Origin: Polyangiaceae bacterium UTPRO1
Lineage (GTDB): Bacteria; Desulfobacterota; Binatia; UTPRO1
Length of the DNA: 64,000 bases
Direction of reading: 5' to 3'
Assembly: GCA_002050235.1 (NCBI GenBank)
Contig: MWST01000001.1
Location: 4,243 to 68,242 of the forward strand
Shown here: piece by piece, positions 15,425 to 30,483 of the stretch
How positions within the stretch are numbered: position 1 is the stretch's first letter
Layout: each line of letters begins with the position of its first letter
Made by a program: the position numbers and the translations under genes
The notes under the pieces: model-generated
The model's input: only the letters and a program-made list of their open reading frames with translations
Told to the model about the DNA's origin: nothing
The model's database searches: none

Positions 15425-18400
15425 TCAATCGGAGCGATCCTGGAGTCGCGTCGGATCCTGGCGCTCGAACGGGGCGGCATAGCTCGCGCCCCAGCAAAGG
15501 CCGCCGCGGGCCTGGAGCTGTATGGTGAGCGGTGCGGCGAAAGTCGTGGGCGGCGGCATGGCCAAGGCCGAGCCCGATCCCTTGAGGTCGATCTTCGCGA
15601 CGCCGTCGGGCCCCGCCTTCAGGGACACCTGGAGCCGTCCGTCGGGACCGAACGCGTAGTTGCGATACGTGAATCCGCTCGGACGCGCGCTCCAACACGG
15701 CCGTCCGGCGCAGACGCCGGCAGCGGGCATGGCCCACTCCGCGCGCAGGCCGCTGGCGTCGTAGAGGCAGAGCGCGAAGTCCGATCCGTCGGGCTGCGTC
15801 GGGTTGCCGAAGTCGGCGACGGCCGTGGCCGCACCATGGGTCCACTTCCAGCGCACCGTGTCCTTACGGCCGCCTTCGCGATCGCGGAGCTGCACCGACG
15901 CCATGCCCGATCGCACCGGCCGACGGCAACCCGTTGACGGTGCCGGACCGCACTGCGGTCCGGGTGTGGGCGTCGCGGTGGCGATCGTCGTCGCGGATAC
16001 GGTCGGAGTGGCGGTCCGCGTCGGGGTGGGCGTCCGCGTCGCGGTGCGCGTTGCGGTCGGCAGGCGCGGCGTCACGGTCGGGGACGCATCCGGATCGCAG
16101 GGATCTCCGAGCCCGTCGCCGTCGGTATCCTGTTGCTCGATGTTGGCGATGGTCGGACAGTTGTCGAAGGCATCGGGAATCTCGTCGCCGTCTTGATCGG
16201 CGGCTGCTGCGACCGTGATCTCCTGGCGGCAGATCGCAGAGGCGGGACAGTCAGCGGTAGCCGCGCAGGGATCGAGCGCCCGTTCGCAACGACCCGCGTC
16301 GCCGCAGGTCGCCGGGGCTTCGCAGGACGCGTCGTTCGTACAGGTCGTGCCGAGATCCTCGATGCACCGGCCGGCGCTGCTGAAGACGCTGCCGCCTCCG
16401 TCCGGTGCGGTTAGCGGGCTCACGAGCCGTTGGATGTTCTGTCCGGCCGCTACGCAGGTCGCCGGCGCGGTGCAGCTTGCATTGGTGGCGCACGGCCCCT
16501 CGACGGTCTTGCAGACTCCCTGGCCCGGAGCGTCGCGCACGGGCTCGCAGTAGTTGTCCGTGCCGCAGAGACCGGATTGCTGCGGATCGCACGCGATCCC
16601 GAGGCTGCGCGTGCAGCCGCCGGGAGGTACGAAGCACGTTCCTCCCGGGCAGTTGGCGTCGCTCGCGCAAGCGTTGCCGCTCGTGGTGCAGATGCCGGCG
16701 CTCACGCTCCCGAGCACGCGGAGGGGACTCGCCGCACCGCCCGCACGGCCGCGCGCCCGGCCGCCGCTCGGCGGCGCCAGGCGAGGGTTGAAGACCTGCA
16801 GAACCAGGTCGTCCTGATCGCCGTCGCCGTTCAGGTCGCGCCCCTGATCGGCCTCTAGCGTCAGAAACGTCACCGTGTCGCCCTGGACTCGATACGGTTG
16901 CCGGGGGTCGCAGGCTTCGAGCCGACACGGGGTGACCGCCATGGCGGTGTTGAGGAGCCGCCGGCTCTCGACGTCGTAGATCTGCAATACGTCGTCGGCG
17001 ATGTCACCGTCACCGTTCAGAGGGAGGCCGCCTTCGGCGGCTTCGCTGGTGCGGAAGGCGACGAGCTCGCGTCCGGCCGTACCACCGATTACGAACTCCT
17101 CGGCGGCGCAGGCGCGCGGCGTCGTCGTCGCGCCGAGCAGGATCCGGCCGAGGGCGGCGTCGTAGATCTGGAGCACGCGATCGGTCGCATCGGCGTCGCC
17201 ATTGATCCGTGCGGAGCCTTGCGCGCTCTCGTCGGTCAGGAAGACCGCGATCGGGCCGGCGAGCGCGAGCTTCACGGCAGCCTGGCCGACGTTCGCCCAG
17301 CCGCCGCCGTCGAGCGCCCGTACCGCGACGACCGTGTCGGCGCTATCGCCGTCGCCGTTCAGGTCCGCGCCCTCGCCCGCCTCGGAGACGAGAGCGGCGA
17401 CGTGGCTGGCGGAGAGGGCGACGCTCGTTGCGGCGAGGCCGAGATTCTGGACGCTGCCGTTCGCCCAGAGGTGCACGACCTCGTCGAGCGCGTCGGCGTC
17501 ACCGTTCAGGCTCGGGGCAGCCGCGGGACACCCGGGCGCGTTGCCGCCGCTCTCGGGTCGCAAGAACGCCGCGGCGCCCGCCGCGACGCTCACCGCGCCC
17601 GCCGGGCACGACGGTCCGAGCGAGGCGCCGGTCTGTGCGTCGATCACCTGCAGGACGGTATCCGCGAGATCGCAATCGCCGGTGAGGTCGTGGGCGCAGT
17701 CGGTGCGGTCGGGCGCCCATACCTGTGCGCGGATGCCAGTGACGTCGTAATAGCCGACGATCTGGCCGTCGGCGCTGATGGAGGATTCCCCTCCGGCCGC
17801 GTAGATCAACTCGGTGGTCGCCGTCAGGCGATCGCGGCGGTAGAGGGCGAAAGCGCTCCCCGGAAACCCCGGCACGACGTTGGGAGAGTTGTCCGAGCCG
17901 AAGAGGACGTACCGCGCGTCGCCGCTCACGCCGCGCAGTCGGCCCAAGCCGGGCAACTGCACCCCACCGTTGCCGAGGCTGACGCGTTCTGTGATGCCGG
18001 TCAGTCGGTCGCGGACGAAGACGTCGCCGATGCCGTTCGTGTCGCCGGCGACGAGGTTCGACGCGGAGGACGTGAAGGCTACGTACCGGCCGTCCGGAGT
18101 GATCAGCGGCGCGCCGGCGTCGTGGTTCGGCGCCCCTCCCGTGGGCGTCACGTCGATGCGTTCGACGGTGCCGGTCGCCCGGTCGCGCACGTAGACTCCC
18201 GTCCAGTTTCCCGGCGGCACGAGGCTGGCATCGTTGGACGTGAAGACGACGAAGCGGCCGTCGGCGCTGAGAGTCGCGCCGCCGCCGCCGCTCGGATTCG
18301 CCGGCGGAGCGTTGCGGCGGCTCACGCACTCGGTCGAGCCGGTGAGAGTGTCGTGCAGAAACGAGTCGGTGATCCCGTTGGTGTCGTTAGCGACCAGATT

Positions 18401-20815
18401 GGTCGCTTGCGAGTCGAAGGTGACGAAGCGTCCGTCGGCCGAGATGGCAGGGTTCCAGCTGGACCCGTTGCCTTGCTGTCCGGCGCTGTCGACGCTGACG
18501 CGGACGGTGCTGATCGCGCCGGGCTCGTCGAAGATGCCGTCACCGTCCGTATCGCGATCGTGGAGGAAGACGTCGCTGAAGCCGTTGGTGTCGCCCGGCA
18601 CCATGTTGCTCGCGACGCTCGGAAAGGCGACGAAGCGTCCGTCCGGCGAGATGGCGATGCCCGGCCCGCTGCCGTTGTTGACCTCGTTGCCGTTGCCGTC
18701 GACGCTCACGCGGACCCTGGTGCCGGTGGCGCGGTCGTACGCGTAGACGTCCAATACCCCGTTGGTGTCTGCCGGGACCTCGGTGGGGTCGCTGCTGGCA
18801 AAGGCGACGTGGCGGCCCTCGGCGGCGACCACGGCGCCGAAGCTGTGCAGGCCGAGGAAGATGCTCGACGGGGTGCCGGCGCCGGGGCTCTCGAAGACGT
18901 GGCGCGCCGCGTGCGCCTCGGGCGCGCGGACGAACACCCGCCCGTTCGAGAGCACGAGCGGGCGACCGTCGACGAGGGGCGCCGCATCGACGACGCGGGT
19001 GCTCGTTCCCGCGATCGGTACGGCGCCGCCGGGCGTCGAGCGGAAGAGGCGAAGAACGGCGTCGGCGACATCGCCGTCGCCGTTGGCGTCGAGGGCGGCC
19101 TGTGCCGGCTCCGATTCGAGGAAGGCCGAGATCTCGCCGTCGACGGCGAGGGCCGGATAGCTGAACGGGGGCTCGTGGACGCGTGCGACCGCGCGTCCGT
19201 CAGCGCCGCTCGTGCCGATGGGCTGCAGTGTGCCGGTGGCGCGGTCGGTCAGGCGGACGACGTCGTCGAGCCTGTCGCCGTCACCGTTCAGATCCTCGTC
19301 TTGGAGAGCTTCGGACATGACGAAGGCGTTGACGTCGGCGCTCTGGTTGAGGCCATCGAGCGCAACCGGATCGAGCGCTACGGCGGCAAAGGCCGTGCAC
19401 TGGCCGGGAGCGCATTGCGCATCGACGGTGCACTGGTCGAGAGGGCTCGCTCCGCCGAGGCATGTGCCGGCGCGCAGCACCACGGGCCCGACTCCGGCGA
19501 GCAGCCGGGTTTCGAAGTCGAACAAGCCGGCGCGACACGTGCCGCCCGGGCACTCGGAGCTCGATGCGCAGGTCGCGGTAGCGTTCGTACCGCCGACGCA
19601 GGTCGCGATACCGCACGTCCCGTCGGGGCAGTCGGCGCCGCCGTTGCACGGCAGGCCGACGTTCGCGCCGCCGGCGCAGACGAGGCGGCCCGGACTGCGG
19701 CGCGCGATGCGCACGACGCTCGCCGGCGCGTCGGCCGTACCGAAGAGCGTGAGCGCGTCTTCCGCTGTCGGGTCGGTTTGGGGATCGAAGATGGGAGGGA
19801 GCTTCGCGCCGCCGGGCGAGTACGAGCCGAGGAAGGCACGATCGGGGATCCGTAACGGCTGCCCGGATTCCTCGAACGCCTCGACCGTCGTCGAGCCGCG
19901 GAGCAGGCGCGCGACCGGCACCTCGTTCCGGCGTACGAGTACGCCCTGCATCCCGACCGGGAGCAGGACGTTCCCGGCCGTATCGAGGGTGAAGCGGAGG
20001 TCGTCGACGGTCCCCGTGCAGGGCGGGCTCGGGGCCGTGCAGAGCGCTTGGTAGTCGTTGGGTGGCGGCAACGCGGTGAAGTGCGGAAAGACGGGGTGCG
20101 GCATCGGATCGCAGGCGGTGCCGAGATCTGCGAACAGATCGTCGACGCACGCGAGCAGGTCCGTCCGATCGGCGCACGACTCGCTAGCGAGCGCACAGGG
20201 CAGTGCATCGCTCGCCGAGGTTACGGCGATGGCGACCGGTCCCGTCAGGGTCAGGTCGTCGTTCACGCCGCCCGTGCAGGCGCCGCCGGGACAGGTCGCA
20301 TCGTCGGTACAGGCGCGCCCCGCGTCGTTGCCGCCGGTACAGATCCGCAGGATCGGGTCGGTATCGGGAAAGCGGAATCGAAGGTGGTTGCCGTCGCTGG
20401 CTGCGATGTCGAGCGGCTGCCCGAATCGATTCGCGGTGAAGCACGTGGCGCTCGCTACGTCCGGGCGGGCCGCGCAATCCTGGCGTCGACTCTCGAGCGC
20501 GGCGCAGTCGGTGGCCAGGATCGCAACGTGCCGCGGACCGGCGGGCGGCTGGAAGACGACGGTGACGACTTGCTCCGCCGCCGTCGTCGCGAACCCCGGT
20601 GACCCCGCGTGGCAGCCCGGCTCGCGCGTCAGCTGTATCCAATCGCCCGGGGAGGCGAACGGGCGATCGGCGGCGGCGAGCGTGGAGCGGAAGGACTGTT
20701 GCGTGCCGGGAATGACGTCGCAGGTCGCGAGGCACCGATCGGGGTGTCCGAGCCGCAGGGCAGCGATCGCCACGGAGGCGAGAGCGTGCCTGCGGAAAGA
20801 GCGAAGGGTGCGCAT
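15425..20815 (-). CDS. 1796-aa secreted multi-repeat protein (Cys-rich modules, DxNGDGD calcium-loop-like repeats, PD40/TolB-like beta-propeller repeats, thrombospondin type-3-like repeat, Pro/Thr linker, C-terminal domain)
   Basis: Signal peptide [23 protein letters not shown]. Six repeats of DGR[FYH]V.F.S....V..DTNG..D.[FY]..D..TG (PD40-like). Eight copies of [DN]G D[GAC] D..D.V[LV] motifs (e.g. [17 protein letters not shown]). At least 8 copies of C..[DSN]..C[PA].G.C. One [35 protein letters not shown] segment (TSP3-like). Confidence 0.85.
   Translation of the reverse strand: [1796 protein letters not shown]
15955..16095 (-). repeat. Low-complexity Pro/Thr linker coding region in the 1796-aa protein
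   Basis: Encodes [45 protein letters not shown] on the minus strand. Confidence 0.9.
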
Positions 20816-20983
20816 GAGAGCCCGTTGGAGGTGTAGAGAAGCTCTCTAATCGCCGGCGTGGCGTCAAGGATTTCGAGACACGGCGTCCGACCCGAGCTGC
20901 GCCATATCGGTGCACCCTATCCGCGCCGGCGCCGCCCAGCGCTGCCACTGCCATTCCGCCATATCGCCCATCTCCTGCGCTCT

Positions 20984-21003
20984 CTAGCGCGACACTAGCG
21001 CGA
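20984..21003 (+). repeat. Direct repeat CTAGCGCGA-CA-CTAGCGCGA in the divergent intergenic region upstream of the cytochrome operon
   Basis: ctagcgcga occurs at 20984-20992 and again at 20995-21003, separated by ca. A TTGACC (-35-like) hexamer follows immediately at 21010-21015. No function is demonstrated. Confidence 0.5.
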
Positions 21004-21090
21004 TTTTCCTTGACCGCGACGCAACGGAACGGTAAGCGGCTGCGGCAAGCCTGGGTCGGCATCGCTACGGAGCTTGAGGGGGGTGTGCGC

Positions 21091-23418
21091 GTGCGACGAG
21101 ACATTGGTTGGTCTCGCAGGTGGTTTTCGGTTGCGGCAGCGGCGCTTCTCGCGGGCGCGACGGCGTGCGGCGGCGGTGGTGGCGGCGGCAACGAGAGCAC
21201 CCGACCGACCGCACCGGGGGCGAGCGCGAATGCGCTCAACGTGACGATCGTCGATGCGGCGATCGCCGGCGACGATCGGCCGACCGTCCGCTTCTTCCTG
21301 ACCGACGGACAGGGGGCGCCGCTCTCGCCCGACGGCGTCCGTATTCGCTTCGTGATCGCGGTGCTGCAGGGCGACGGCGGCGAATACCGCGACTACATCA
21401 CCACCGTGCAGACGAGTCCAGACACCAAGATCTCGGCGACGCAGGCAGCCGCCGAGGATGCGGCGCAGGGTACCCTCGAAGATCAGGGCGGAGGCCTCTT
21501 CCGTTACACCTTCGAGAAATCGTTGCCGCAAGGCTACGTTCGGGATGCTTCACACCGGGTCGCCATCTTCGCCGACACCACCATCCTCGACGTCGCCTAC
21601 GTGTCGAACGACGTGCTCGACTTCGTACCGGCGGGCGGGGCGCCGAGGGCGACGCGCGACATCGTTCGCACCGAGACGTGCAACGGTTGCCACGACCCGC
21701 TCGGCGCGCACGGCGGAGCGCGTCGCGACGTCCGGCTCTGCGTCGCCTGCCATTCCACGGAGATCACCGACTTCGCTACCGGAGAGACGACCCCGCACAT
21801 CGATCCCGACACCCGGAACGGCATCGGTTTTCCGGAGCTCATCCATAAGATCCATCGGGGCGAGAACCTGCCGAGCGTGGAGAGCGGACACCCATACCAG
21901 ATCATCGGCTATCGCCAGAGCGTCATCGATTTCTCCCACGTCGCGTTTCCGCAGGACATCCGGAACTGCGAGACCTGCCACAGCGGCGGCGCCCAGAGCG
22001 ACTTCTTCGCGACGCGCCCGTCGCGAACGGCCTGCGGCTCGTGTCACGACGACGTGAACTTCGCGAGCGGCGCCAACCACGGCGGCGGCCCGCAGCCGAC
22101 CGACGGTAGCTGCTCGTCGTGCCACCTGCCGGACTCCGGCCACGAGTTCGATCTTTCGGTCGTCGGGAGCCACACGGTGCCGCAGAACTCGCGGCAGGCC
22201 GCAGGTGTGCGGTTCGCACTCCTCGAGGTTACGAGCGCCGAGAGCGGCGAACCCGTGGTCGCGCCCGGCCAGCACCCGCGCGTGCGCTTCACGATCACCA
22301 GCGCCGCCGGCGACCCGATCCCGCCGGCCGCCATGAACTCGCTGAGCCTCGTGCTCGGCGGCCCGACGGCGGAGTATTCGGCGCAGGACTACGACGGCAA
22401 CGGGACCATCGTACCCGGCGACCCGTCGAGCCCGTGGACCCCCGGCGCCGAGACCTTCAAGTCGGAGAGCGCGATCAAAGACGCGCAGGGTCCCGACCAG
22501 TCGGGCGCCTGGACCTACACCTTCAAGGCCGCAGTGCCGCCGAATGCGACGGGCAGCTACGTGATCGGCATCGAGGGCTACCGGTGCGCCGCGATCGCGG
22601 GGGCGAACCAGCGGCGCGGCGGCTCGAACTGCGACGGCACGGCCGATCCGAACGGCAACGGCCGCGAGGATCCCGGCGAGGTGTTCAACCAGGTTCGCGA
22701 CGCGGGCCACAACGAAGTGCTACCGTTCCCGGTCTCCGCCGCCGCAGTCGCGTCGCGCCGCGAGCCCGTAGCGATCGACAGGTGCTCCGTCTGCCACGGT
22801 GTCTTCTCGAAGGATTTCCTGGTCCACGGCGGCATCCGCAACGAGACGCGCTACTGTCCGGTCTGCCACAATCCGTCGAACGACACGCTGAGCCGCGAGC
22901 TGCCGCCGGCCGGCGAGACGGCGATGACGAGCCCGATCGACTTCAAGGTGATGATCCACAAGATCCACCGGGGTGAGGAACTAGCCGATCCGTACGTCCT
23001 CTACGGCTTCCCGACCGGAAAGTTTCCGAACCAGACCTCGACGGCGACGAACTTCCAGGAGCTTCTCTACCCCGGCGATCTCCGCGACTGCGAGGCGTGC
23101 CATCTGCCGGGCACCTACGTGCTCTCCCCCGGCGCGGGGATCCTCGGGCCCGGGGTGCTGCCGTCGACGGTGCGCTCATTCCTCCAGGGAGAGCGTGACA
23201 AGACGGTCCTCGATGTCTTCACGACGCCGCCGACGATCGCGGTCTGCACGAGCTGCCACGACGACGTCGACTTCACGACCGGCGCCAACCATGCGGCGGG
23301 ACCGCAGAGCGAGGGGAGCTGCGTCGACTGCCATGGCGTCGGACGGTCTCTGAGCGTCGAGCGCACGCACTTCCCCGGCGTTGCGCGCGAGGCGCGCATC
23401 CTGCGGCCGAACAACTGA
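21091..23418 (+). CDS. Decaheme c-type cytochrome lipoprotein, MtrC/OmcA-like architecture
   Basis: Ten CXXCH motifs in a 5+5 arrangement: CNGCH, CVACH, CETCH, CGSCH, CSSCH, then CSVCH, CPVCH, CEACH, CTSCH, CVDCH. The first lies at 21679-21693 and the last at 23320-23334. The two halves are separated by a ~200-aa heme-free region. Duplicated signatures are present (LIHKIHRGENL / MIHKIHRGEEL; C..CHDDV.F..GANH..GPQ...GSC..CH twice). The signal peptide ends ...AAALLAGATAC and is followed by a Gly run, so it is a probable lipoprotein. The start is uncertain (GTG 21085 or 21091, after GAGGGGGG); the track start 21010 is a TTG inside a promoter-like hexamer. Confidence 0.85.
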   Translation: MRRDIGWSRRWFSVAAAALLAGATACGGGGGGGNESTRPTAPGASANALNVTIVDAAIAGDDRPTVRFFLTDGQGAPLSPDGVRIRFVIAVLQGDGGEYRDYITTVQTSPDTKISATQAAAEDAAQGTLEDQGGGLFRYTFEKSLPQGYVRDASHRVAIFADTTILDVAYVSNDVLDFVPAGGAPRATRDIVRTETCNGCHDPLGAHGGARRDVRLCVACHSTEITDFATGETTPHIDPDTRNGIGFPELIHKIHRGENLPSVESGHPYQIIGYRQSVIDFSHVAFPQDIRNCETCHSGGAQSDFFATRPSRTACGSCHDDVNFASGANHGGGPQPTDGSCSSCHLPDSGHEFDLSVVGSHTVPQNSRQAAGVRFALLEVTSAESGEPVVAPGQHPRVRFTITSAAGDPIPPAAMNSLSLVLGGPTAEYSAQDYDGNGTIVPGDPSSPWTPGAETFKSESAIKDAQGPDQSGAWTYTFKAAVPPNATGSYVIGIEGYRCAAIAGANQRRGGSNCDGTADPNGNGREDPGEVFNQVRDAGHNEVLPFPVSAAAVASRREPVAIDRCSVCHGVFSKDFLVHGGIRNETRYCPVCHNPSNDTLSRELPPAGETAMTSPIDFKVMIHKIHRGEELADPYVLYGFPTGKFPNQTSTATNFQELLYPGDLRDCEACHLPGTYVLSPGAGILGPGVLPSTVRSFLQGERDKTVLDVFTTPPTIAVCTSCHDDVDFTTGANHAAGPQSEGSCVDCHGVGRSLSVERTHFPGVAREARILRPNN

Positions 23419-23437
23419 GCGACGAGCGAGGGCGGGC

Positions 23438-23752
23438 GTGGTGCGGCGGTGGTGCGGAGCGGTTCTCGGGGCGGTCGCGATCGTGGCGCTCGTCGGCTGC
23501 GGCAAGGGCAACGACGACGGCGAGGACTTCGGGAACCTGATCGCCGGAGCGCAGGGGACGCAGCTGACGCGCGCCGAGCATCCGACTGGATGGGGACGGA
23601 GCGAGTGCTTCCTTTGTCATCCGCTCGAGGAGATTCATCGGGTCGATCGCAGCGGCACCGGTACGTTGCCGCTCGCCGACATTCGCCGCTTGGTCGATCG
23701 CGATCGCCTGGGGAGCTGTCCCCTGTGCCACGGCAGCAACGGCGTGAATTGA
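23438..23752 (+). CDS. Small diheme c-type cytochrome lipoprotein
   Basis: Signal peptide with a good lipobox (AIVALVGC) and two CXXCH motifs (CFLCH, CPLCH) in about 85 mature residues. GTG start follows GAGGGCGGG, 19 nt after the decaheme stop. Confidence 0.7.
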   Translation: MVRRWCGAVLGAVAIVALVGCGKGNDDGEDFGNLIAGAQGTQLTRAEHPTGWGRSECFLCHPLEEIHRVDRSGTGTLPLADIRRLVDRDRLGSCPLCHGSNGVN

Positions 23753-23756
23753 CGGC

Positions 23757-25064
23757 ATGAGCAGCGGACGCGTCCTCGCAGCAGTGGTGGCCGTGGCGGC
23801 GGCGTTGCCGGCGCCGCCGGCGATCGCGGGAGCACCAGCCCGTTGGGCGCCGGCCGCGAGCGGCTTCTACGGCAACGTGTACACCGCCTTCCAGGCGAAC
23901 ACGCCGCTGCGCCGCCCGTTCGACGACGACAAGAAGGTGTTTCCCTTCTACCAATATCTCGACGTCCACGGGTACGATCCCGCGCACGGACTGTCGTCGT
24001 CGGCGTTCGTGCGCGCGCGCGAGGTCGCCAACGGCGACGATGTCACCCTCGATGTCTACAATGCGAACCTCGAATATCGGGGTCTCGGCGACGCCGGCGA
24101 CGCGCTGCAGGTGCGGGCCGGACGCCAGGTGCTCGCCGAGGGAACGAATTTCCTGCTGATGGACGGAGCCTACGTCCGCGCCAAGCCGCTACGGGGGCTC
24201 GATGTGGTCGCGTACGGCGGCTACCAGGATGCCGATCTGCAGCCGTACCCGGAGAAGCCGGAGCGGAGCTTCGGCGTCTTCGGCGCCACGCTGCGCTCGA
24301 CGCAGTTCCTGGGCGCCCTCGCAACGGTCGGCTACCACGGCCTGACGCCGCAGGACTCGGCTCCGCGCCACTTCGTGGACCTGGGCTTCAAGCGCGCCGT
24401 GCCGTACACCGACTTCGCCGACGTCTACAGCCGGGTGGAGCTCGATGTCGGCGAGGCGGTGCCGGCGTTCGCCAACGTCGGCGTCGGCCTGAGCCTGGCG
24501 CGGCCGCTCTACCTGAATCTCGAATACGACAGCTACGAACCCGACCCCGATCAGGACCGGTTCCTGCAGGATCGGATCTTCGACGTCTTCGCGCTCGACC
24601 GTCTGCAGGAGGCGCGCATCGGGATCACCTACAAGGCGACGCGCTGGCTCGATGTGTCGTCGAGCTATTCGTTCGCGACCTACGACAAGCAGAACGACCA
24701 TGCGACGCACGGCCACATCGCCAAGCTCGGCTTCAACTGGAACTTCTGGCGGCGACTCGGGCTGCGCGCGTTCAACGGCGTCTACCTGATCGACGGCGGC
24801 GGCGACGATCGCGCGGTCGGCGTCAACTGCGGCGTCTCCGAGGAGATCCTCCGCGGCCTCGAGATCCATGGGATCTTCGCCTTCGCGAACTTCGACAGCA
24901 TCACCGGCAAGCACGGCAACGCCTACAGCTACATCATCGGCACCCAGTACCTGGTGGTGCGGAACGTCTCGCTCCTCGCCGAGATGGAGTACAACACCAA
25001 TCCCGATTTCGAGGTCGACGTCCGCGGCAATTTCGGCCTTACCTACACCTTCAGCTGGAGCTGA
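23757..25064 (+). CDS. Outer-membrane beta-barrel protein (candidate porin component of the cytochrome conduit)
   Basis: 435 aa with signal peptide MSSGRVLAAVVAVAAALPAPPAIAGA. Aromatic-rich amphipathic strands alternate throughout (LDVYNANLEYRG, VVAYGGYQD, IGITYKATRWLDVSSSYSFATY, LGFNWNFW, GNFGLTYTFSWS at the C-terminus). There are no heme motifs. The call rests on composition and pattern, not on a recognised named family. Confidence 0.65.
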   Translation: MSSGRVLAAVVAVAAALPAPPAIAGAPARWAPAASGFYGNVYTAFQANTPLRRPFDDDKKVFPFYQYLDVHGYDPAHGLSSSAFVRAREVANGDDVTLDVYNANLEYRGLGDAGDALQVRAGRQVLAEGTNFLLMDGAYVRAKPLRGLDVVAYGGYQDADLQPYPEKPERSFGVFGATLRSTQFLGALATVGYHGLTPQDSAPRHFVDLGFKRAVPYTDFADVYSRVELDVGEAVPAFANVGVGLSLARPLYLNLEYDSYEPDPDQDRFLQDRIFDVFALDRLQEARIGITYKATRWLDVSSSYSFATYDKQNDHATHGHIAKLGFNWNFWRRLGLRAFNGVYLIDGGGDDRAVGVNCGVSEEILRGLEIHGIFAFANFDSITGKHGNAYSYIIGTQYLVVRNVSLLAEMEYNTNPDFEVDVRGNFGLTYTFSWS

Positions 25065-25068
25065 CCCG

Positions 25069-25701
25069 GTGCGACGATCGACCTTGCGGATCTGTCTGTT
25101 CTCTCTCGTGCTCGCGATCGGCGTGGGCCTCGGCTGCCGGAAGCTCGGGCAGGGCGTCGACTGGGGCTGGCGTGCGGAGCGGCCGGCGGACGCGCTCGCG
25201 GTGTTCTCGCATCAGGGGCACAAGAAGGTCTTCGCGGAGCGGCGGATCCAATGTTTCGCGTGTCACACCATGTCGGCGCGGCTCGAGGACGAGCAGGAGG
25301 CCGCCGCCGCGATCCGAGCGTCCAGGGAGGTGTTCAACGGCGGCAAGGAGGCGTGCCACGCCTGCCACTACAATCCCGAGGTCGGCAACACCGCTCCCGA
25401 CCGCTGCGGGATCTGTCACGCCGATGTCGAGGAGGTCGAGCCGGCGAATCACAACTTCGACTGGATGAGCCGCCACCTGGTCTTCGCCAAGAACGACCCC
25501 GCCAGCTGCGAGAGCTGCCACCAGCAGCGCTACTGCCAGGACTGTCACACCCGTCGCGACCAGACGGTGCGCAGCTACCACGACACCAACATCCGCTTCA
25601 CGCACGGCATCGAGGCGCGCGCGAATCCCATGAAGTGCGGGCAGTGCCACGCTCGCGGCTTCTGCCAGCACTGCCACACGGAAGGCGGCTATGAGAAGTA
25701 G
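25069..25701 (+). CDS. Heptaheme c-type cytochrome (c3/c7-like paired motifs), possibly lipoprotein
   Basis: Seven CXXCH motifs: CFACH, CHACH, CGICH, CESCH, CQDCH, CGQCH, CQHCH, including the tandem pairs CESCHQQRYCQDCH and CGQCHARGFCQHCH. The N-terminal hydrophobic segment ends GVGLGC, an imperfect lipobox. GTG start at 25069, 4 nt after the barrel stop; the track start 24868 overlaps the barrel gene. Confidence 0.8.
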   Translation: MRRSTLRICLFSLVLAIGVGLGCRKLGQGVDWGWRAERPADALAVFSHQGHKKVFAERRIQCFACHTMSARLEDEQEAAAAIRASREVFNGGKEACHACHYNPEVGNTAPDRCGICHADVEEVEPANHNFDWMSRHLVFAKNDPASCESCHQQRYCQDCHTRRDQTVRSYHDTNIRFTHGIEARANPMKCGQCHARGFCQHCHTEGGYEK

Positions 25702-26293
25702 GGGAGCACTCGCCGTCGCCGCGGCGCTGCTCCTATTCGGAGCGGTCGGAGCGCATGCGGCGGAGAAGGACAAGGACGAGGACAATCCGCACGAGAAGAT
25801 GACGCGGAGCCGGAGCGTTTGCATCGATTGCCATACGCGGGTGCCGAAGCCGGGAGAGCACGCCGCCGATTATTCCCTCGTCGATGCGCCGTCGGAGAAC
25901 TGCCTTGGTTGCCACAGCGAATCCGAGCACGCCGGCGCCCGGGCGCACCTCGGCCGCGAGTTCGCGAAGGAGGCGCCGGAGGTGGCCGCCGGGTTGCCGC
26001 TCGACGAGCACGGCAAGATCGCCTGCTTCACCTGCCACGATCCGCATCCGGCGGGCGTGATCGAGGGCCGCACGGTGCATGCGTCGGCGGTGAATACGGA
26101 GACGCGGACGTTTCTCGCGGCGCGGGCGCTGCCCGCGGGCGCCGAGCGCCTCGAGCCTTCCGCCGAGTTCGGGGCGCTGCTGCGCTTGCCACCCGGTGTC
26201 GGATGTGCAGGTTGTCACCCGGCAACGAAAGAATCACCTTGGAGGGAGAAGACGCTATGGAGCGAACGCATTCGGGTCTTGCCGTATTGGTAG
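25691..26293 (+). CDS. Tetraheme c-type cytochrome, periplasmic
   Basis: Signal peptide MRSRGALAVAAALLLFGAVGAHA and four CXXCH motifs (CIDCH, CLGCH, CFTCH, CAGCH). The start overlaps the preceding gene by 11 nt. Confidence 0.8.
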   Translation: MRSRGALAVAAALLLFGAVGAHAAEKDKDEDNPHEKMTRSRSVCIDCHTRVPKPGEHAADYSLVDAPSENCLGCHSESEHAGARAHLGREFAKEAPEVAAGLPLDEHGKIACFTCHDPHPAGVIEGRTVHASAVNTETRTFLAARALPAGAERLEPSAEFGALLRLPPGVGCAGCHPATKESPWREKTLWSERIRVLPYW

Positions 26294-26730
26294 TCGCGGG
26301 TCTCGTCGGAGCGCTGGCGAGCGCCGCGGCAGCAGCCGACGATCCCGGCGTGAAGGTGTTCATCGAGAAGCGGTGCTACACGTGTCATACGGTGGCGTCG
26401 CATGCGGCCGAGATCGAGAAACAGAAGGCCGCTTTCATCAAAGCGAGCGGCGCCGAAGCGGATGAAGAGGGCGAGGACGAGAAGGATAGCAAGGGTGGCG
26501 ATCTCTCCGACGTCGGTGCGAAGCGCACTGCCGCCTGGGTGGACGAGATCCTGAAGAACCCGAAGCCGAGCTTCAAAGATACTCCGGAGTGCCAGCGCCT
26601 GGCGAAACAGAAGGATCGGAAGAAGTTCAAGGGCACGCCCGAAGAGCTGACGGCGCTCGAGAAGTTCTTGGGCAGCCTGAAGGGAGAGGCGAAGCAGGCT
26701 GCGGGCTTCACCTCCTGCCTGAAGGACTAG
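26257..26730 (+). CDS. Monoheme c-type cytochrome with Lys/Glu-rich region
   Basis: ATG at 26257 is preceded by GGAGGGA. Signal peptide MERTHSGLAVLVVAGLVGALASAAAA and a single CYTCH. The charged segment EADEEGEDEKDSKGGD is followed by AAWVDEILKNPK, which resembles class I cytochrome c. It overlaps the tetraheme gene by 37 nt in another frame. Confidence 0.7.
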   Translation: MERTHSGLAVLVVAGLVGALASAAAAADDPGVKVFIEKRCYTCHTVASHAAEIEKQKAAFIKASGAEADEEGEDEKDSKGGDLSDVGAKRTAAWVDEILKNPKPSFKDTPECQRLAKQKDRKKFKGTPEELTALEKFLGSLKGEAKQAAGFTSCLKD

Positions 26731-26737
26731 TCGGCAG

Positions 26738-27415
26738 ATGACGTGGGACTGGTTGCCGCTCCTCCTCGTCGGCGCCGACGCCGGCGGGGAGGCCGCGGAA
26801 CCCGGACTCGCAACGCTGCGCATCGGCGCGGGAGCTCTCTGCGTTCTGGCGATGGCGCTGGTCGCGTACGGCACGCTCTGGCGCCGCGACGGCGTTAGCC
26901 CCGGGGCCCGCGTCGCCATGATGATCGGCTTCCTCGTGCTCTCGCCGCTCGCCTACGTGGTGAACGCGGGCCTGGCGATTACGGACGCCAAGCCCGTCGC
27001 ATTCTGCAACTCGTGCCACGTCATGGAGGCGTACGTCGCCGATCTGCATGATCCCGACAGCGAGCACCTGGCGGCGCAGCACTACCAGTTCCGCTGGATC
27101 GCCGAGAACCAGTGCTACACCTGCCACTCCGACTACGGGCTCTTCGGCGACTTCCAGGCGAAGATCGCCGGACTCAGGCACGTCTGGCACAACACCATCG
27201 GCGACTACGAAGTGCCGTTGAAGATCCGCGGCACCTACAACAACCAGCGCTGCCTCTTCTGCCACGGCCCCGTGCGCTCGTACCGCGAGGTGCCGGAGCA
27301 CGAGAAGAACGCGGCGCGGATCGCGACCAGCGAGATGTCGTGCATCGGCGGCAGCTGCCACGTGTCGCCGCATCCGAAGGCCGCGGCGAAGGCGGAGTCG
27401 GCGCATGCTTCCTGA
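26738..27415 (+). CDS. NapC/NirT/NrfH-family-like membrane-anchored multiheme quinol dehydrogenase
   Basis: Two N-terminal hydrophobic helices. Heme motifs are CNSCHVM (a CXXCHXM signature as in NrfH heme 1), CYTCHSDYGLFGDFQAKIAGLRHVWHN (NapC/NirT-like), CLFCH, and a non-canonical CIGGSCH (CX4CH) at 27341-27361. Confidence 0.75.
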   Translation: MTWDWLPLLLVGADAGGEAAEPGLATLRIGAGALCVLAMALVAYGTLWRRDGVSPGARVAMMIGFLVLSPLAYVVNAGLAITDAKPVAFCNSCHVMEAYVADLHDPDSEHLAAQHYQFRWIAENQCYTCHSDYGLFGDFQAKIAGLRHVWHNTIGDYEVPLKIRGTYNNQRCLFCHGPVRSYREVPEHEKNAARIATSEMSCIGGSCHVSPHPKAAAKAESAHAS

Positions 27416-27638
27416 CGAAGGAGCGCGTGCGGCGGCCCGGAGCCGGCAACGCGTGTGGCTCGTCGCCGCCGGACTCCTGCAGATCGTAGCGATGCTGCTG
27501 GTCCTCGGCGCCCTCGTCCGTCTGACGCCGCTCACCATGACGTTCTCCGTCGGTGGCGCCGGGATACTGCTCGTCCTCGCCTGCGGTATCTACCTAGTGA
27601 ACGTCATGATGGACCTCCGCCACCGCAGCATTTTCTGA
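27405..27638 (+). CDS. Small two-helix membrane protein, last ORF of the cytochrome operon
   Basis: 77 aa with two clear hydrophobic helices (VWLVAAGLLQIVAMLLVLGALV; VGGAGILLVLACGIYLVNVMM). G/C dominates the third codon positions, as in the neighbouring genes. It overlaps the preceding gene by 11 nt. No recognisable family. Confidence 0.45.
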   Translation: MLPDEGARAAARSRQRVWLVAAGLLQIVAMLLVLGALVRLTPLTMTFSVGGAGILLVLACGIYLVNVMMDLRHRSIF

Positions 27639-29129
27639 CGGCCCTACTTGAGGCTGACGTTGCGGCTGTAGGTGGCCGCTACGAGGCGCTGCGAATGCGG
27701 TCGCCTGCCCAGGCCCGAGCTCCGGAGCGGCTGTCTGCATCCGGCGCGTGCGCAAAATCGCCTCGCTGGCGGCGAAGCGCGAGTCCACGAGTGGGCTCGG
27801 TGCCACCCCGAAGGCCACCAGCACCAGAATGAGGGCGCCGAACGTCCAAGTCTCGCGCGGCTGCAGCTCGAGCGACAGCGCTGACGGTACCGGCGGATCC
27901 GGTCGTCCGCAGAACAAGGCGAAGTACATGCGCAGGACGGCGAGGCCGGTCAGCGCCGCCGCGATCACTACGGCAAAACCCATGAAGGGGAAGAGATCGA
28001 TGGCGCCGTCGACGAGGAGCTCCTGCCCCGTGAAGCCCATCGTTCCCGGAAATCCGGTGCATGCAAGGCCGGTGAGCAGGAACGCGATCGCGAGCAGCGG
28101 CATGCGCCGGTAGCCGCCGTGGTATGTCGCCAGGTCCAGACGGCCGCGACGCGATTCGAGCACGAGCACCGAGCGTGCCAGGCCGGCGAACGCCAGCCCT
28201 GCCGACAGCCATACGAGTAGACCGCCGGCGAGCGCGCTCGCGCTCGTGCAGTCGAGACCGGCCATCACCAGTGCCGACTGGCTCACGAACAGGTATCCGC
28301 AGGCTCGGCGTGCGCTTGTTTGAGCCAATGCGAGGGCCGCGCCGTAAACGGCGGTGCCGAGCGCCAACGTGGCGATCGTCCGCAACAACGCCGGGGAGGC
28401 GTGCGGCACGATGAGCACGACGGTGATGTATGCTCCCAGTTGCGGAGCAGTGAACAGGATCGCAGGACCGAGCCGCCCGCGATCGAATACTTCCGGCACC
28501 CAGGCGTGAAACGGCAGAATGCCCTTGCGCGCCAATGCTCCTCCTGCCATGAGCCAGAGCCCGAGCGTTTCGGCGCCGGTGCCGCGCGCGCTCGGAGCCG
28601 TCACGAGCATCACGCCGACCGCGAACAATACTGTGGAAGCGCCGAGATAGGCTGCCGCGACCCGGCGCACGCGCCGGTGTGCCGGGGCAGCGAGTGCCGC
28701 GAGCAGCGTCCACACCGAGGCCGTCGCCAGTACTACCAGCGCAACCGCGCTTTCGGTCAGGAACGACGCGAATGTGATCAACGTGGCGAGCGCCGTACGC
28801 CGGAGGCCGCTTCGGTCGAGTGCCGCGCGCGGCGTCACGCCGACGGTGAGAAGCCATAATCCTGCGGCGAACGGCAGCAACGCCGCCGAGAACGAGTCGA
28901 TGCGCAGGATCGATTCGTTGCCGGCGCGCCAGGCTAGCGCCGTGGTCGGAATCGAAAAAGTGCGCAATCGCGGCGAGAACGCAGCCCCTAGCGCGATCGC
29001 CGTCATTATCGATGCGGCTCCGACCGCCAGCGAGCGCAGCCGCTCGACGTCGAGGCGCACGTACGACACGACAATGACGGTCGCGGGGCATGCGGCGAGC
29101 GCGGCCAGCCAGAGCGGGGCGCTAGTCAT
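27594..29129 (-). CDS. Second proton-conducting antiporter-like membrane subunit (NuoM/NuoN/MnhD-like, PF00361-type) of the DAB-like operon
   Basis: 511 aa, polytopic, with a divergent version of the K..P.H.W.P motif (ARKGILPFHAWVPEVFDRG) and a TM-embedded Glu (FLTESAV). An 8-nt overlap with the upstream gene suggests translational coupling. The C-terminal ~45 aa are low complexity. Confidence 0.7.
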   Translation of the reverse strand: MTSAPLWLAALAACPATVIVVSYVRLDVERLRSLAVGAASIMTAIALGAAFSPRLRTFSIPTTALAWRAGNESILRIDSFSAALLPFAAGLWLLTVGVTPRAALDRSGLRRTALATLITFASFLTESAVALVVLATASVWTLLAALAAPAHRRVRRVAAAYLGASTVLFAVGVMLVTAPSARGTGAETLGLWLMAGGALARKGILPFHAWVPEVFDRGRLGPAILFTAPQLGAYITVVLIVPHASPALLRTIATLALGTAVYGAALALAQTSARRACGYLFVSQSALVMAGLDCTSASALAGGLLVWLSAGLAFAGLARSVLVLESRRGRLDLATYHGGYRRMPLLAIAFLLTGLACTGFPGTMGFTGQELLVDGAIDLFPFMGFAVVIAAALTGLAVLRMYFALFCGRPDPPVPSALSLELQPRETWTFGALILVLVAFGVAPSPLVDSRFAASEAILRTRRMQTAAPELGPGQATAFAAPRSGHLQPQRQPQVGPSENAAVAEVHHDVH

Positions 29130-30483
29130 CGTGCCCGTCGCTCCCGTCGTCCGGCGGCGCCGGCGAGGCGCCTGCCGCCGCGGCGCACAGCCTCTGGTCG
29201 AGAATCGTCAAGCGTCGCGTGAGCGTCGTGAATGGAGCGACGACGAGGCGGTCGAGCCAGCTATCGAGGAATCCGCGCTCGAGCGCGAACAGGTACAGCC
29301 CCAGCTGGGCGCGACGCGGGGCCAGCGCTTCGATGTAGCCGCGCGCCGGTGTCGGGCGTCCGCCCAGCGCATCCTCCATCCCGTGCAGGTCGTGCAAGAC
29401 GTTCGGTGCGCTCAGAAATTGCAGTAGCCGGAAGCACGCGTGTCCCGAGAGGTGCAGGAAGGCGATCGTGCTCCAGCCGAGCGCGATTTCGACGACGATG
29501 ATCCCGACCTGCGTCAGCGCCGCGTATGCCAACGACGACTTGACGTCGCTCTGCACGCGCGTAGCCATCGCGGCGAAGACGGCCGTGCTTGCGCCGGCAG
29601 CGCCGGCCAGCAGGCGCGCGGCCATCGCCTGCTCGAACAGCGGCCCCGCTCGCAGCAGCAGGAAGCAGCCGGCATGAATGGACAACGATCCGTAGTATAC
29701 GGCACTCGATGGAGTTGGTCCCTCCATCGCTCGGGGTAGCCAGCCCGAAAACGGCAGCAGGGCGCTCTTGCCGGCTACGGCGACGATGATGAGGACGGCG
29801 ATCGAGGTCACCTTGACCGGTGTGAGACCTGCCAGCGACAGCGCCGGCGCGCCGCTGAACAACAACTCCAGACTATCGCTGCCGGCGACGTGCCGGAGCA
29901 GTACCGCCGCTGACAGTAGCGCCGCATCGCTCACGCGGTATATGGCGAGTACGCGCAGCGCATTCGATACCGGCGCCGGTCGCTCGTGAAAGAACCCGAC
30001 GAGCAGCGCCGAGCTGAGCCCGACGAGCTCCCAGCCGACGAACAGCACTTCGACATTGCCGGCGAGGGCGACAAGCAGCATGCCGGTCGAGAGCATCGCG
30101 AGCAGGACGAAGTAGCGGTTGTAGCCGGGTTCGCAGTGCAGGTAGCGGTTCGAGAAGGCCGCGACGATGCCGAGGATGGCGGCCGACAGTGCCGCAAAGG
30201 CGAGCGACATCCGGTCGACCAGGAACTCGAGGCCAATGGCGTGGCTGTACGAGCCGGACCAGGCACCGTATGACAAGAGGCGCAGCTCTGCCGGCGTCGA
30301 TTCGTGGATGGCGAACGCGATGCAGAGGGCCGTGCACGCCAGGAGCATCGCGGTACCCGTCAGGAACGCAGTCCAGCGTTCAGTGAGCGGTCGCCCCGCG
30401 ACCGAGGCCGCGCCGAGCAGCGCGAACAGGCCGACTGGGGCGGCGACTGCCGTCAGCACGAGTGCCGCGAGCGCGCCGCTCAT
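29122..30483 (-). CDS. dabB: DabB-like proton-conducting membrane subunit (NuoL/MnhA-like, PF00361-type)
   Basis: 453 aa, polytopic, with NuoL-type signatures VLFVGWELVGLSSALLVGF and AGKSALLPFSGWLPRAMEGPTPSSA. A 4-nt overlap with the upstream DUF2309 gene. Confidence 0.75.
   Translation of the reverse strand: MSGALAALVLTAVAAPVGLFALLGAASVAGRPLTERWTAFLTGTAMLLACTALCIAFAIHESTPAELRLLSYGAWSGSYSHAIGLEFLVDRMSLAFAALSAAILGIVAAFSNRYLHCEPGYNRYFVLLAMLSTGMLLVALAGNVEVLFVGWELVGLSSALLVGFFHERPAPVSNALRVLAIYRVSDAALLSAAVLLRHVAGSDSLELLFSGAPALSLAGLTPVKVTSIAVLIIVAVAGKSALLPFSGWLPRAMEGPTPSSAVYYGSLSIHAGCFLLLRAGPLFEQAMAARLLAGAAGASTAVFAAMATRVQSDVKSSLAYAALTQVGIIVVEIALGWSTIAFLHLSGHACFRLLQFLSAPNVLHDLHGMEDALGGRPTPARGYIEALAPRRAQLGLYLFALERGFLDSWLDRLVVAPFTTLTRRLTILDQRLCAAAAGASPAPPDDGSDGHDD

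What the first reader, a model, noticed from the sequence alone, without database searches (positions are those of the whole stretch)
23438..25701. Compact beta-barrel flanked by small multiheme proteins: candidate minimal porin-cytochrome module
The barrel gene (435 aa) is bracketed by a diheme lipoprotein (~85 mature aa) 4 nt upstream and a heptaheme protein (210 aa) 4 nt downstream. In MtrAB-type complexes a ~330-aa decaheme wire threads a 26-strand barrel. Here the barrel is much shorter and the flanking cytochromes carry 2 and 7 hemes. If these proteins do form a trans-outer-membrane wire, it would have a different stoichiometry and geometry from the described ones. This is inference from gene order and sizes.
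Basis: inference. Interest (0 to 1): 0.6.

Follow-up and report, generated by a model that had tools for sequence, protein, structure and literature searches.

The report
Compact barrel with split nine-heme wire
Three tightly packed genes (a small two-heme lipoprotein, a 22-strand outer-membrane barrel and a seven-heme cytochrome) are the conserved core of a little-studied family of bacterial outer-membrane "electron cables". It is a new variant of the known porin-cytochrome kind, found only in uncultured bacteria and apparently transcribed in wastewater communities.

Summary
Window 23438-25701 encodes a diheme lipoprotein (104 aa), a 435-aa protein that AlphaFold2 models as an unplugged ~22-strand beta-barrel, and a heptaheme protein (210 aa). 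The genes are 4 nt apart.

The three genes sit in an eight-gene, 28-heme operon (21091-27638). It starts with an OmcA/MtrC-family decaheme lipoprotein and ends with a periplasmic tetraheme, a monoheme cytochrome c, an NrfH/NapC-like quinol dehydrogenase and a small membrane protein.

- All 27 related genome loci keep the gene order as far as their contigs reach.
- Six far more distant barrel relatives (21-29% identity) each have a heptaheme homologue next to the barrel. Five of the six also have the diheme lipoprotein.
- In those distant loci the upstream cytochrome varies from 6 to 23 hemes. In one case it is fused to the barrel.
- The genome has no MtrA or MtrB.

So the trio is a real, conserved module, most likely a trans-outer-membrane electron conduit. 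Its size range (18-22 strands, 5-14 hemes) is already described for Geobacter-type Pcc clusters, so it differs in geometry from MtrAB but not from the known kind. What looks new is a barrel family absent from Pfam and NCBIfam, a split 7+2-heme arrangement, and an MtrC-type outer partner. Complex formation, topology and direction of electron flow remain inferred.

The parts
21091..23418 (+). OmcA/MtrC-family decaheme lipoprotein, the likely cell-surface cytochrome. The ORF can be extended upstream to TTG 21010. The likely start is GTG 21091, which has a GAGGGGGG sequence upstream.
   Evidence: TIGR03507 scores 411 bits against a cut-off of 209, and PF22113 matches twice. The protein has 10 CXXCH motifs and the lipobox AGATA-C followed by a Gly-rich linker. 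All 10 motifs are invariant in 18 orthologues.
23438..23752 (+). Diheme lipoprotein (104 aa, 84 aa mature).
   Evidence: It has 2 CXXCH motifs. The lipobox Cys21 and the extra histidines His48 and His67 are invariant in 13 sequences, including distant ones. It matches no Pfam or NCBIfam family. A homologue is present in 5 of 6 distant loci (blastp E 1e-22 to 8e-10).
23757..25064 (+). Outer-membrane beta-barrel of about 22 strands (435 aa) from an unannotated family. It is the proposed sheath of the conduit.
   Evidence: AlphaFold2 gives mean pLDDT 79.8, 22 strands, no plug and connecting loops of 19 aa or fewer. Foldseek finds only generic barrels, with TM-score 0.53 or lower. It matches no Pfam, NCBIfam or PDB-sequence entry. 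There are 54 close homologues and 193 representative clusters. Lumen-facing residues are more conserved than lipid-facing ones (0.78 against 0.72, p = 0.002).
25069..25701 (+). Heptaheme c-type cytochrome (210 aa), the proposed heme wire inside the barrel. It is lipoprotein-type in this clade.
   Evidence: It has 7 CXXCH motifs plus 7 further invariant histidines in 27 close and 6 distant homologues. It always lies directly downstream of the barrel. It carries a lipobox here, but an SPI signal in 4 of 6 distant homologues.
25691..26293 (+). Periplasmic tetraheme cytochrome (200 aa), a likely periplasmic shuttle.
   Evidence: It has 4 CXXCH motifs, an SPI-type signal peptide and cytochrome c7/c3-type Pfam hits. 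It is conserved in synteny.
26257..26730 (+). Monoheme class I cytochrome c (157 aa).
   Evidence: PF00034 matches. The start is ATG 26257 with GGAGGGAG upstream. It is conserved in most loci.
26738..27415 (+). NrfH/NapC/CymA-like membrane-anchored tetraheme quinol dehydrogenase.
   Evidence: PF03264 and TIGR03153 give hits below their cut-offs. It has 3 CXXCH motifs plus 1 CX4CH.
27405..27638 (+). Small (77 aa) predicted membrane protein that ends the operon.
   Evidence: It is an ORF that overlaps the NrfH-like gene by 11 nt. It was not studied further.

Best explanation
The three genes encode the core of a porin-cytochrome-type outer-membrane electron conduit.

Proposed arrangement (inferred):
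- The 22-strand barrel is a sheath with no plug of its own.
- The slim heptaheme cytochrome (about 26 residues per heme, all bis-His) enters the barrel from the periplasmic side and carries electrons through it.
- The 84-residue diheme lipoprotein extends the chain to nine hemes. This is close to the ten hemes of MtrA.
- The diheme protein links the chain to a surface-exposed cytochrome, which here is the upstream MtrC-family decaheme lipoprotein.

On the periplasmic side, the NrfH-like quinol dehydrogenase, the tetraheme and the monoheme cytochrome would connect the conduit to the quinone pool.

Shown: the gene content, the heme and ligand motifs, the lipoboxes, the barrel fold, the strict synteny, a natural cytochrome-barrel fusion, and RNA-library contigs that cover the operon.

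Inferred: that the proteins form one complex, which protein sits at which end, and the direction of electron flow. I lean about 60:40 towards electron export to extracellular acceptors, because the outer partner is of the MtrC type.
For: 1. AlphaFold2 gives an open barrel of about 22 strands with connections of 19 aa or fewer and no plug. By established knowledge, the large barrels of known structure (22-strand TonB-dependent transporters, 24-strand ushers, 26-strand LptD and MtrB) are all filled by a plug domain or a partner protein.
2. The order MtrC-like, diheme, barrel, heptaheme, tetraheme is kept in all 27 genome loci as far as the contigs reach, down to 42% barrel identity.
3. In six distant loci (profile E 1e-33 to 1e-5), a heptaheme homologue always follows the barrel (HMM E 1e-56 to 1e-32). 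A diheme lipoprotein homologue is present in five. The upstream cytochrome varies between 6 and 23 hemes.
4. In L034 a 12-heme domain is fused to the barrel in one 723-aa protein.
5. Distant heptaheme homologues carry SPI signals, which points to a periplasmic origin. The diheme protein is always a lipoprotein.
6. The genome has one MtrC-family gene but no MtrB or MtrA above cut-off.
7. Lumen-facing residues are more conserved than lipid-facing ones.
8. Metatranscriptome contigs from four runs in three studies cover the operon with no mismatches in the long pieces. They include single pieces spanning 21241-24480 and 24613-27841. In two of the runs, depth dips outside the operon.
9. The strand and heme numbers lie within the range reported for Pcc systems (PMC4245776).
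Against: - There is no direct evidence of a complex. No co-fold could be run, and the heptaheme model was unusable (pLDDT 42).
- In this clade the heptaheme protein is itself lipidated, unlike MtrA or OmaB, so its side of the membrane is uncertain.
- The position of the diheme protein (outer mouth or periplasmic mouth) is a guess.
- The pore size was estimated only from the strand count, not measured on coordinates.
- The RNA evidence comes from assembled contigs of metatranscriptomic libraries, in which DNA carry-over cannot be excluded.
- The monoheme cytochrome c plus the CymA-like gene also resemble the Mto Fe(II)-oxidation cluster, so the direction of flow is open.
Confidence: 0.68

Rival explanations
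1. The hardware is the same but it runs inwards. The conduit takes electrons from an extracellular donor (Fe(II), Mn(II), a reduced mineral or a partner cell) and passes them through the tetraheme and monoheme cytochromes to an oxidase or to the quinone pool, as Mto/Pio systems do.
For: - The operon carries a monoheme class I cytochrome c and a CymA/NrfH-like protein. By established knowledge this is the same accessory set as mtoA-mtoB-mtoD-cymA in Sideroxydans.
- A DAB-type CO2 pump operon lies tail-to-tail with it.
- The organism occurs in aerated wastewater and activated-sludge samples.
Against: - The outer partner belongs to the MtrC/OmcA family. The FeGenie paper treats that family as a marker of reducers and says it is not encoded by known iron oxidisers (PMC7005843).
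- No oxidase or carbon-fixation gene lies inside the operon.
- Sequence alone cannot give the direction of flow.
Confidence: 0.27
2. The barrel is an ordinary diffusion or substrate channel, or an export or anchoring device for the surface lipoproteins. It is merely co-transcribed with cytochromes that work beside it, not inside it.
For: - Foldseek finds only generic porins and ushers.
- Three of the neighbouring cytochromes are lipoproteins that may need help to reach or stay at the surface.
- No complex was modelled.
Against: - General porins have 14-18 strands and a constriction loop. This model has 22 strands and no in-folding loop, so an empty barrel would leave a very wide hole.
- The barrel is strictly coupled to one particular heptaheme family across very distant relatives.
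- A cytochrome-barrel fusion exists.
- The lumen-facing residues are conserved.
Confidence: 0.08

Closest known systems
Geobacter-type porin-cytochrome (Pcc) complexes: OmbB-OmaB-OmcB, ExtABCD, ExtEFG, ExtHIJKL and the Gmet pcc clusters
   Same: - A clustered set of genes for a porin-like barrel of 18-22 strands, a small multiheme cytochrome on the periplasmic side (5-14 hemes) and one or more outer lipoprotein cytochromes (PMC4245776; PMC6148476; PMC11389400).
- ExtABCD also has two lipoprotein cytochromes.
- Accessory inner-membrane and periplasmic cytochromes are often attached to these clusters.
   Different: - No sequence family is shared as far as I could test. The barrel and the heptaheme protein match no named family.
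- The inner wire here is split into a 7-heme protein plus an always-present 2-heme lipoprotein.
- The heptaheme protein is lipidated in this clade.
- The outer cytochrome is MtrC-type, not OmcB-type.
- Direct homology to the Geobacter proteins was not tested, because their sequences could not be fetched.
Shewanella MtrCAB (structure 6R2Q)
   Same: - A decaheme OmcA/MtrC-family surface lipoprotein (TIGR03507 above cut-off).
- A CymA/NapC-like quinol dehydrogenase in the pathway.
- A heme wire of about ten hemes (here 7+2) proposed to sit in a barrel.
   Different: - The barrel has about 22 strands and 435 aa, and is not in the MtrB/PioB family. MtrB has 26 strands and about 700 aa.
- There is no MtrA/DmsE-family decaheme.
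- The wire is made of two polypeptides.
Two-gene Pcc clusters of the Anaeromyxobacter type (barrel plus a 12-14-heme, roughly 340-aa periplasmic cytochrome)
   Same: - In MAGs labelled Myxococcales or Deltaproteobacteria, barrels of 411-431 aa are weakly homologous to this one (hhalign 79-88%).
- Those barrels are followed by 13-heme cytochromes of 351-371 aa that contain heptaheme-like repeats.
- This is the same layout that Shi et al. describe for Anaeromyxobacter.
   Different: - Here the cytochrome is half that size and is accompanied by a separate diheme lipoprotein.
- I did not verify that the MAG proteins are identical to the published Anaeromyxobacter genes.
MtoAB-MtoD-CymA and PioAB (Fe(II)-oxidising conduits), and Cyc2 (fused cytochrome-porin)
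   Same: - The accessory monoheme cytochrome c and the CymA-like protein resemble the Mto cluster.
- The fused 12-heme-barrel relative (L034) parallels the fused design of Cyc2.
   Different: - MtoB and PioB are MtrB-family barrels with decaheme partners.
- Cyc2 is a monoheme protein with a smaller barrel.
- No sequence relationship to either was found.

Membership tests
MtrCAB conduit (Shewanella type) | Outer decaheme lipoprotein of the OmcA/MtrC family | tested here: met
   TIGR03507 scores 411 bits against a cut-off of 209. PF22113 matches twice. The protein has 10 CXXCH motifs and a lipobox.
MtrCAB conduit (Shewanella type) | MtrB/PioB-family barrel (TIGR03509/PF11854; 26 strands, about 700 aa) | tested here: not met
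   The 435-aa barrel has no hit at E <= 1 in Pfam or NCBIfam. TIGR03509 is absent from the whole genome. The AlphaFold2 model has about 22 strands.
MtrCAB conduit (Shewanella type) | MtrA/DmsE-family periplasmic decaheme (TIGR03508) | tested here: not met
   The heptaheme protein has no TIGR03508 hit. The best genome-wide hit scores 20.6 bits against a cut-off of 192.
Porin-cytochrome (Pcc) gene cluster in the sense of Shi et al. 2014 | [quoted passage not shown] | tested here: met
   The AlphaFold2 model has 22 strands and mean pLDDT 79.8. The published range is taken from PMC4245776.
Porin-cytochrome (Pcc) gene cluster in the sense of Shi et al. 2014 | Adjacent periplasmic multiheme c-type cytochrome (5-14 hemes) | tested here: inconclusive
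   An adjacent 7-heme protein is always present. In this clade it has a lipobox, while distant homologues have SPI signals. Its location was not determined.
Porin-cytochrome (Pcc) gene cluster in the sense of Shi et al. 2014 | Adjacent outer-membrane lipoprotein multiheme cytochrome | tested here: met
   A decaheme lipoprotein lies upstream and a diheme lipoprotein lies adjacent.
Porin-cytochrome (Pcc) gene cluster in the sense of Shi et al. 2014 | Proteins form one complex that moves electrons across the outer membrane | not testable with these tools
   This needs co-folding with hemes, purification or proteoliposome assays.
Geobacter OmbB/OmaB or Ext sequence families | Detectable sequence homology to the Geobacter proteins | not tested
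   The reference sequences could not be fetched. FeGenie reports Geobacter-like Pcc operons in Dadabacteria (PMC7005843), but which genes they are is unknown. No named Geobacter protein appeared among the homologues.

The most novel reading that the evidence does not exclude
The barrel, the heptaheme protein and the diheme lipoprotein form a universal docking core. The heptaheme protein spans the 22-strand barrel. The diheme lipoprotein caps the outer mouth as an adaptor and completes a two-piece, nine-heme wire. The same core can then be coupled to interchangeable surface cytochromes: MtrC-like decahemes, partners with 6-23 hemes, or a fused 12-heme domain. On this reading, MtrC-type surface cytochromes are not tied to MtrAB. 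It would also define a compact, previously unnamed conduit family spread by horizontal transfer among uncultured lineages whose MAGs are labelled Binatia, Dadabacteria, Bdellovibrionota and Myxococcales.
Probability: 0.3. Interest if true: 0.62.

Novelty: new variant of a known kind. Interest (0 to 1): 0.47.

Why it matters
- Outer-membrane electron conduits decide which bacteria can respire minerals, electrodes or partner cells. Only MtrCAB has a solved structure, and only a few Geobacter clusters have genetics.
- This family is compact: a barrel of about 430 aa with 7+2 hemes. It is conserved, modular in its outer partner, and present in abundant uncultured wastewater and soil lineages, where it appears to be transcribed.
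- It offers a small, tractable system for asking how few hemes and strands suffice to cross an outer membrane, and how an MtrC-type cytochrome can dock to a barrel that is not MtrB.
- For annotation, profiles of the barrel, heptaheme and diheme families would flag conduits that current family libraries and naming miss. Every member seen here is named "hypothetical protein" or generically "cytochrome c3 family".

Tried and rejected
- AlphaFold2 on the heptaheme protein with 27 orthologues gave pLDDT 42. That is too poor for a fold search or any geometric argument.
- Foldseek of the barrel against the PDB returned only generic 16-24-strand barrels with TM-score 0.53 or lower. MtrB was not among the top 50.
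- Profile searches of PDB sequences with the barrel and heptaheme profiles found nothing meaningful.
- A second homologue search with a 62-sequence superfamily alignment did not reach beyond the close family.
- Cluster look-ups for 20 distant barrels returned only unnamed or MAG proteins and no cultured organism.
- Promoter and terminator scans gave nothing above chance.
- I considered that the contig was mis-binned, because only 1 of 301 genomes sampled across the phylum had the barrel. I rejected this because 7 of 9 genomes of the same genus carry it, some on contigs of a megabase or more.
- I considered a mirror-tree co-evolution test and dropped it, because shared phylogeny would dominate the result.
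- Literature searches found no description of a heptaheme + diheme + barrel module.
Full report
**Observation**

The plus strand of window 23438-25701 holds three tightly packed genes.
- The first starts at GTG 23438 and stops at TGA 23750-52. It encodes a 104-aa protein with the lipobox LVG-C21 and two CXXCH motifs.
- After a 4-nt spacer, ATG 23757 opens a 435-aa protein with no heme motif and an SPI-type signal peptide. It stops at TGA 25062-64.
- After another 4-nt spacer, GTG 25069 opens a 210-aa protein with seven CXXCH motifs, which ends at 25701.

**The barrel**

The barrel matches no Pfam or NCBIfam family. A profile of the family matches no sequence of a solved structure. A search of 5.8 billion proteins found 54 homologues. 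All are about 430 aa and all are hypothetical proteins. Those that carry an organism name come from MAGs labelled Binatia, Dadabacteria or Thermodesulfobacteriota.

With a 31-sequence alignment, AlphaFold2 gave mean pLDDT 79.8 and pTM 0.69. The model has 22 strands of 10-17 residues. The two longest connections are 14 and 19 residues, and there is no plug domain.

Foldseek against the PDB returned only generic barrels, with TM-score 0.53 or lower. These were 18-strand Occ, MOMP and AlgE proteins and the 24-strand FimD usher. That fits a strand number between 18 and 24.

From standard barrel geometry (my own estimate, not measured on coordinates), 22 strands give a C-alpha diameter of about 40 Angstrom. 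TonB-dependent transporters have the same strand number, and their lumen holds a plug of about 150 residues.

Residues predicted to face the lumen are polar (rich in Gly, Tyr, Asn, Arg and Asp). They are more conserved than the lipid-facing ones (0.78 against 0.72, p = 0.002).

**The operon**

The trio sits inside an eight-gene plus-strand operon with 28 heme sites.

| Coordinates | Product | Evidence |
|---|---|---|
| 21091-23418 | OmcA/MtrC-family decaheme lipoprotein | TIGR03507 411 bits (cut-off 209); PF22113 matches twice |
| 23438-25701 | the trio | see above |
| 25691-26293 | periplasmic tetraheme cytochrome | 4 CXXCH, SPI signal |
| 26257-26730 | monoheme class I cytochrome c | PF00034 |
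| 26738-27415 | NrfH/NapC-like tetraheme membrane protein | 3 CXXCH + 1 CX4CH |
| 27405-27638 | 77-aa membrane protein | ORF only |

These assignments rest.

The genome is 3.8 Mb and 89% complete. It has this one MtrC-family gene. It has no MtrB/PioB barrel and no MtrA/DmsE decaheme above cut-off. The 435-aa barrel is therefore the only candidate partner for the MtrC-like protein.

**Conservation in close relatives**

A scan of 185,579 species genomes found 27 loci. Wherever the contig reaches, the order is decaheme, diheme, barrel, heptaheme, tetraheme, usually followed by the monoheme and NrfH-like genes. This holds down to 42% barrel identity.
- All heptaheme orthologues keep seven CXXCH motifs and seven further invariant histidines, and they carry a lipobox.
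- All diheme orthologues keep the lipid-modified Cys, two CXXCH motifs and two further invariant histidines.

**Conservation in distant relatives**

A profile search of 1.84 billion representative proteins found 193 clusters at E <= 0.001, mostly 400-460 aa and matched over their full length. I looked at six of them, with E from 1e-33 to 1e-5 and 21-29% identity.
- In all six, a heptaheme homologue of 185-215 aa with exactly seven CXXCH motifs lies directly downstream of the barrel (HMM E 1e-56 to 1e-32).
- In five of the six, a diheme lipoprotein homologue of about 100 aa follows the heptaheme gene (blastp E 1e-22 to 8e-10).
- The upstream cytochrome is variable. It is MtrC-like with 10 hemes in one locus, has 23, 9, 9 or 6 hemes in four others, and in L034 is a 12-heme domain fused to the barrel in a single 723-aa protein.
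- In four of the six, the heptaheme protein has an ordinary SPI signal peptide. The diheme protein is always a lipoprotein.

A further related group pairs weakly homologous barrels (hhalign 79-88%) with 13-heme cytochromes of 351-371 aa that contain heptaheme-like repeats. This is the layout described for the two-gene Pcc clusters of Anaeromyxobacter (PMC4245776).

**Distribution and expression**

Within the window's own phylum the barrel occurs in 9 of 19 genomes of its own family and in none of about 290 others. It also occurs in MAGs labelled Dadabacteria and other phyla. This patchy pattern suggests transfer of the whole cluster.

The DNA is found in activated-sludge, wastewater and bioreactor metagenomes. 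Contigs from four metatranscriptomic runs in three studies cover the operon with no mismatches in the long pieces. Single pieces span 21241-24480 and 24613-27841. In two of the runs, depth dips just outside the operon. This is consistent with a polycistronic transcript. These are assembled contigs, however, and DNA carry-over cannot be excluded.

**Interpretation**

The best explanation is a porin-cytochrome-type conduit across the outer membrane. Large barrels of known structure are filled either by their own plug or by a partner protein. This barrel has no plug. It always travels with one specific slim heptaheme family. It is sometimes fused to a cytochrome.

I infer that the heptaheme protein enters from the periplasm, because its distant homologues are Sec-exported soluble proteins. 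I also infer that the diheme lipoprotein extends the chain to nine hemes and links it to the surface cytochrome. That second step is the weakest, because the diheme protein could equally sit at the periplasmic mouth.

The direction of electron flow is open. The MtrC-type outer partner favours export (FeGenie rule, PMC7005843). The monoheme cytochrome c, the CymA-like protein and the neighbouring DAB CO2-pump operon would also fit electron uptake.

**Comparison with known systems**

The system is not an MtrCAB, because two of that system's three defining families are absent. It fits the functional definition of a Pcc cluster: 18-22 strands and 5-14 hemes (PMC4245776). Geobacter Ext and Gmet clusters already show comparable variety.

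What I could not find described is the following:
- this barrel family;
- the invariable pairing of a 7-heme protein with a 2-heme lipoprotein;
- the coupling of that pair to an MtrC-family cytochrome.

FeGenie mentions Geobacter-like Pcc operons in Dadabacteria. Those may or may not be this cluster, and I could not fetch the Geobacter sequences to test it. Similar sequence-divergent conduits are currently being reported from other uncultured phyla (bioRxiv 10.64898/2026.05.27.727921).

**Verdict**

This is a real, conserved and probably expressed module. It is a new variant of a known kind. Interest is moderate.

Noticed in passing
L034:6001-8172: A 723-aa protein with 12 CXXCH motifs in its N-terminal 300 residues is fused to a barrel of this family (profile E 1.7e-14). 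A heptaheme homologue and a diheme lipoprotein homologue follow it. It is a natural cytochrome-barrel fusion in an unclassified bacterial MAG.
   Followed up: partly
L038:3706-6116 and L039:3769-6056: Weakly related barrels of 411-431 aa (hhalign 79-88%) are followed by 13-heme, SPI-signal cytochromes of 351-371 aa that contain heptaheme-like repeats. They come from MAGs labelled Myxococcales or Deltaproteobacteria and may link this family to the Anaeromyxobacter-type Pcc.
   Followed up: partly
window 22585-22635: The MtrC-like decaheme has a Cys pair (CX15C) inside a roughly 22-residue insert between hemes 5 and 6. The insert is present in the Binatia-like clade and in L009 and L021, and absent from the Dadabacteria clade. 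It recalls the domain III disulfide of Shewanella MtrC and OmcA.
   Followed up: partly
whole genome and relatives (G000-G323): The barrel family is present in 9 of 19 genomes of the window's own family and in 0 of about 290 other genomes of its phylum. It is also found in MAGs labelled Dadabacteria and Thermodesulfobacteriota. This patchy, transfer-like distribution applies to the whole cluster.
   Followed up: partly
window 20600-27900: Metatranscriptome contigs from wastewater and bioreactor runs cover the whole operon. Depth drops in the 20844-21087 intergenic region and after about 27675 in two runs, which suggests transcript boundaries.
   Followed up: partly
window 26257-26293: The monoheme cytochrome c gene starts at ATG 26257, which has a strong GGAGGGAG sequence upstream. 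It overlaps the end of the tetraheme gene by 37 nt in another reading frame.
   Followed up: no
window 27594-33479 (minus strand): A DabA (DUF2309-like, 999 aa) gene plus two NuoL-like membrane subunit genes lie tail-to-tail with the cytochrome operon and overlap its last gene by 45 nt.
   Followed up: no
genome label: An earlier follow-up calls this genome a soil acidobacterium. The record titles of the nearest relatives say Candidatus Binatia, uncultured delta proteobacterium or Polyangiaceae, and the DNA-holding runs are activated-sludge, wastewater and bioreactor metagenomes.
   Followed up: partly
window 15425-20815 (minus strand): A 1796-aa secreted repeat protein is transcribed divergently from the cytochrome operon. 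Only one related locus (L003) shows a weak similar hit upstream, so it is not part of the conserved cluster.
   Followed up: no
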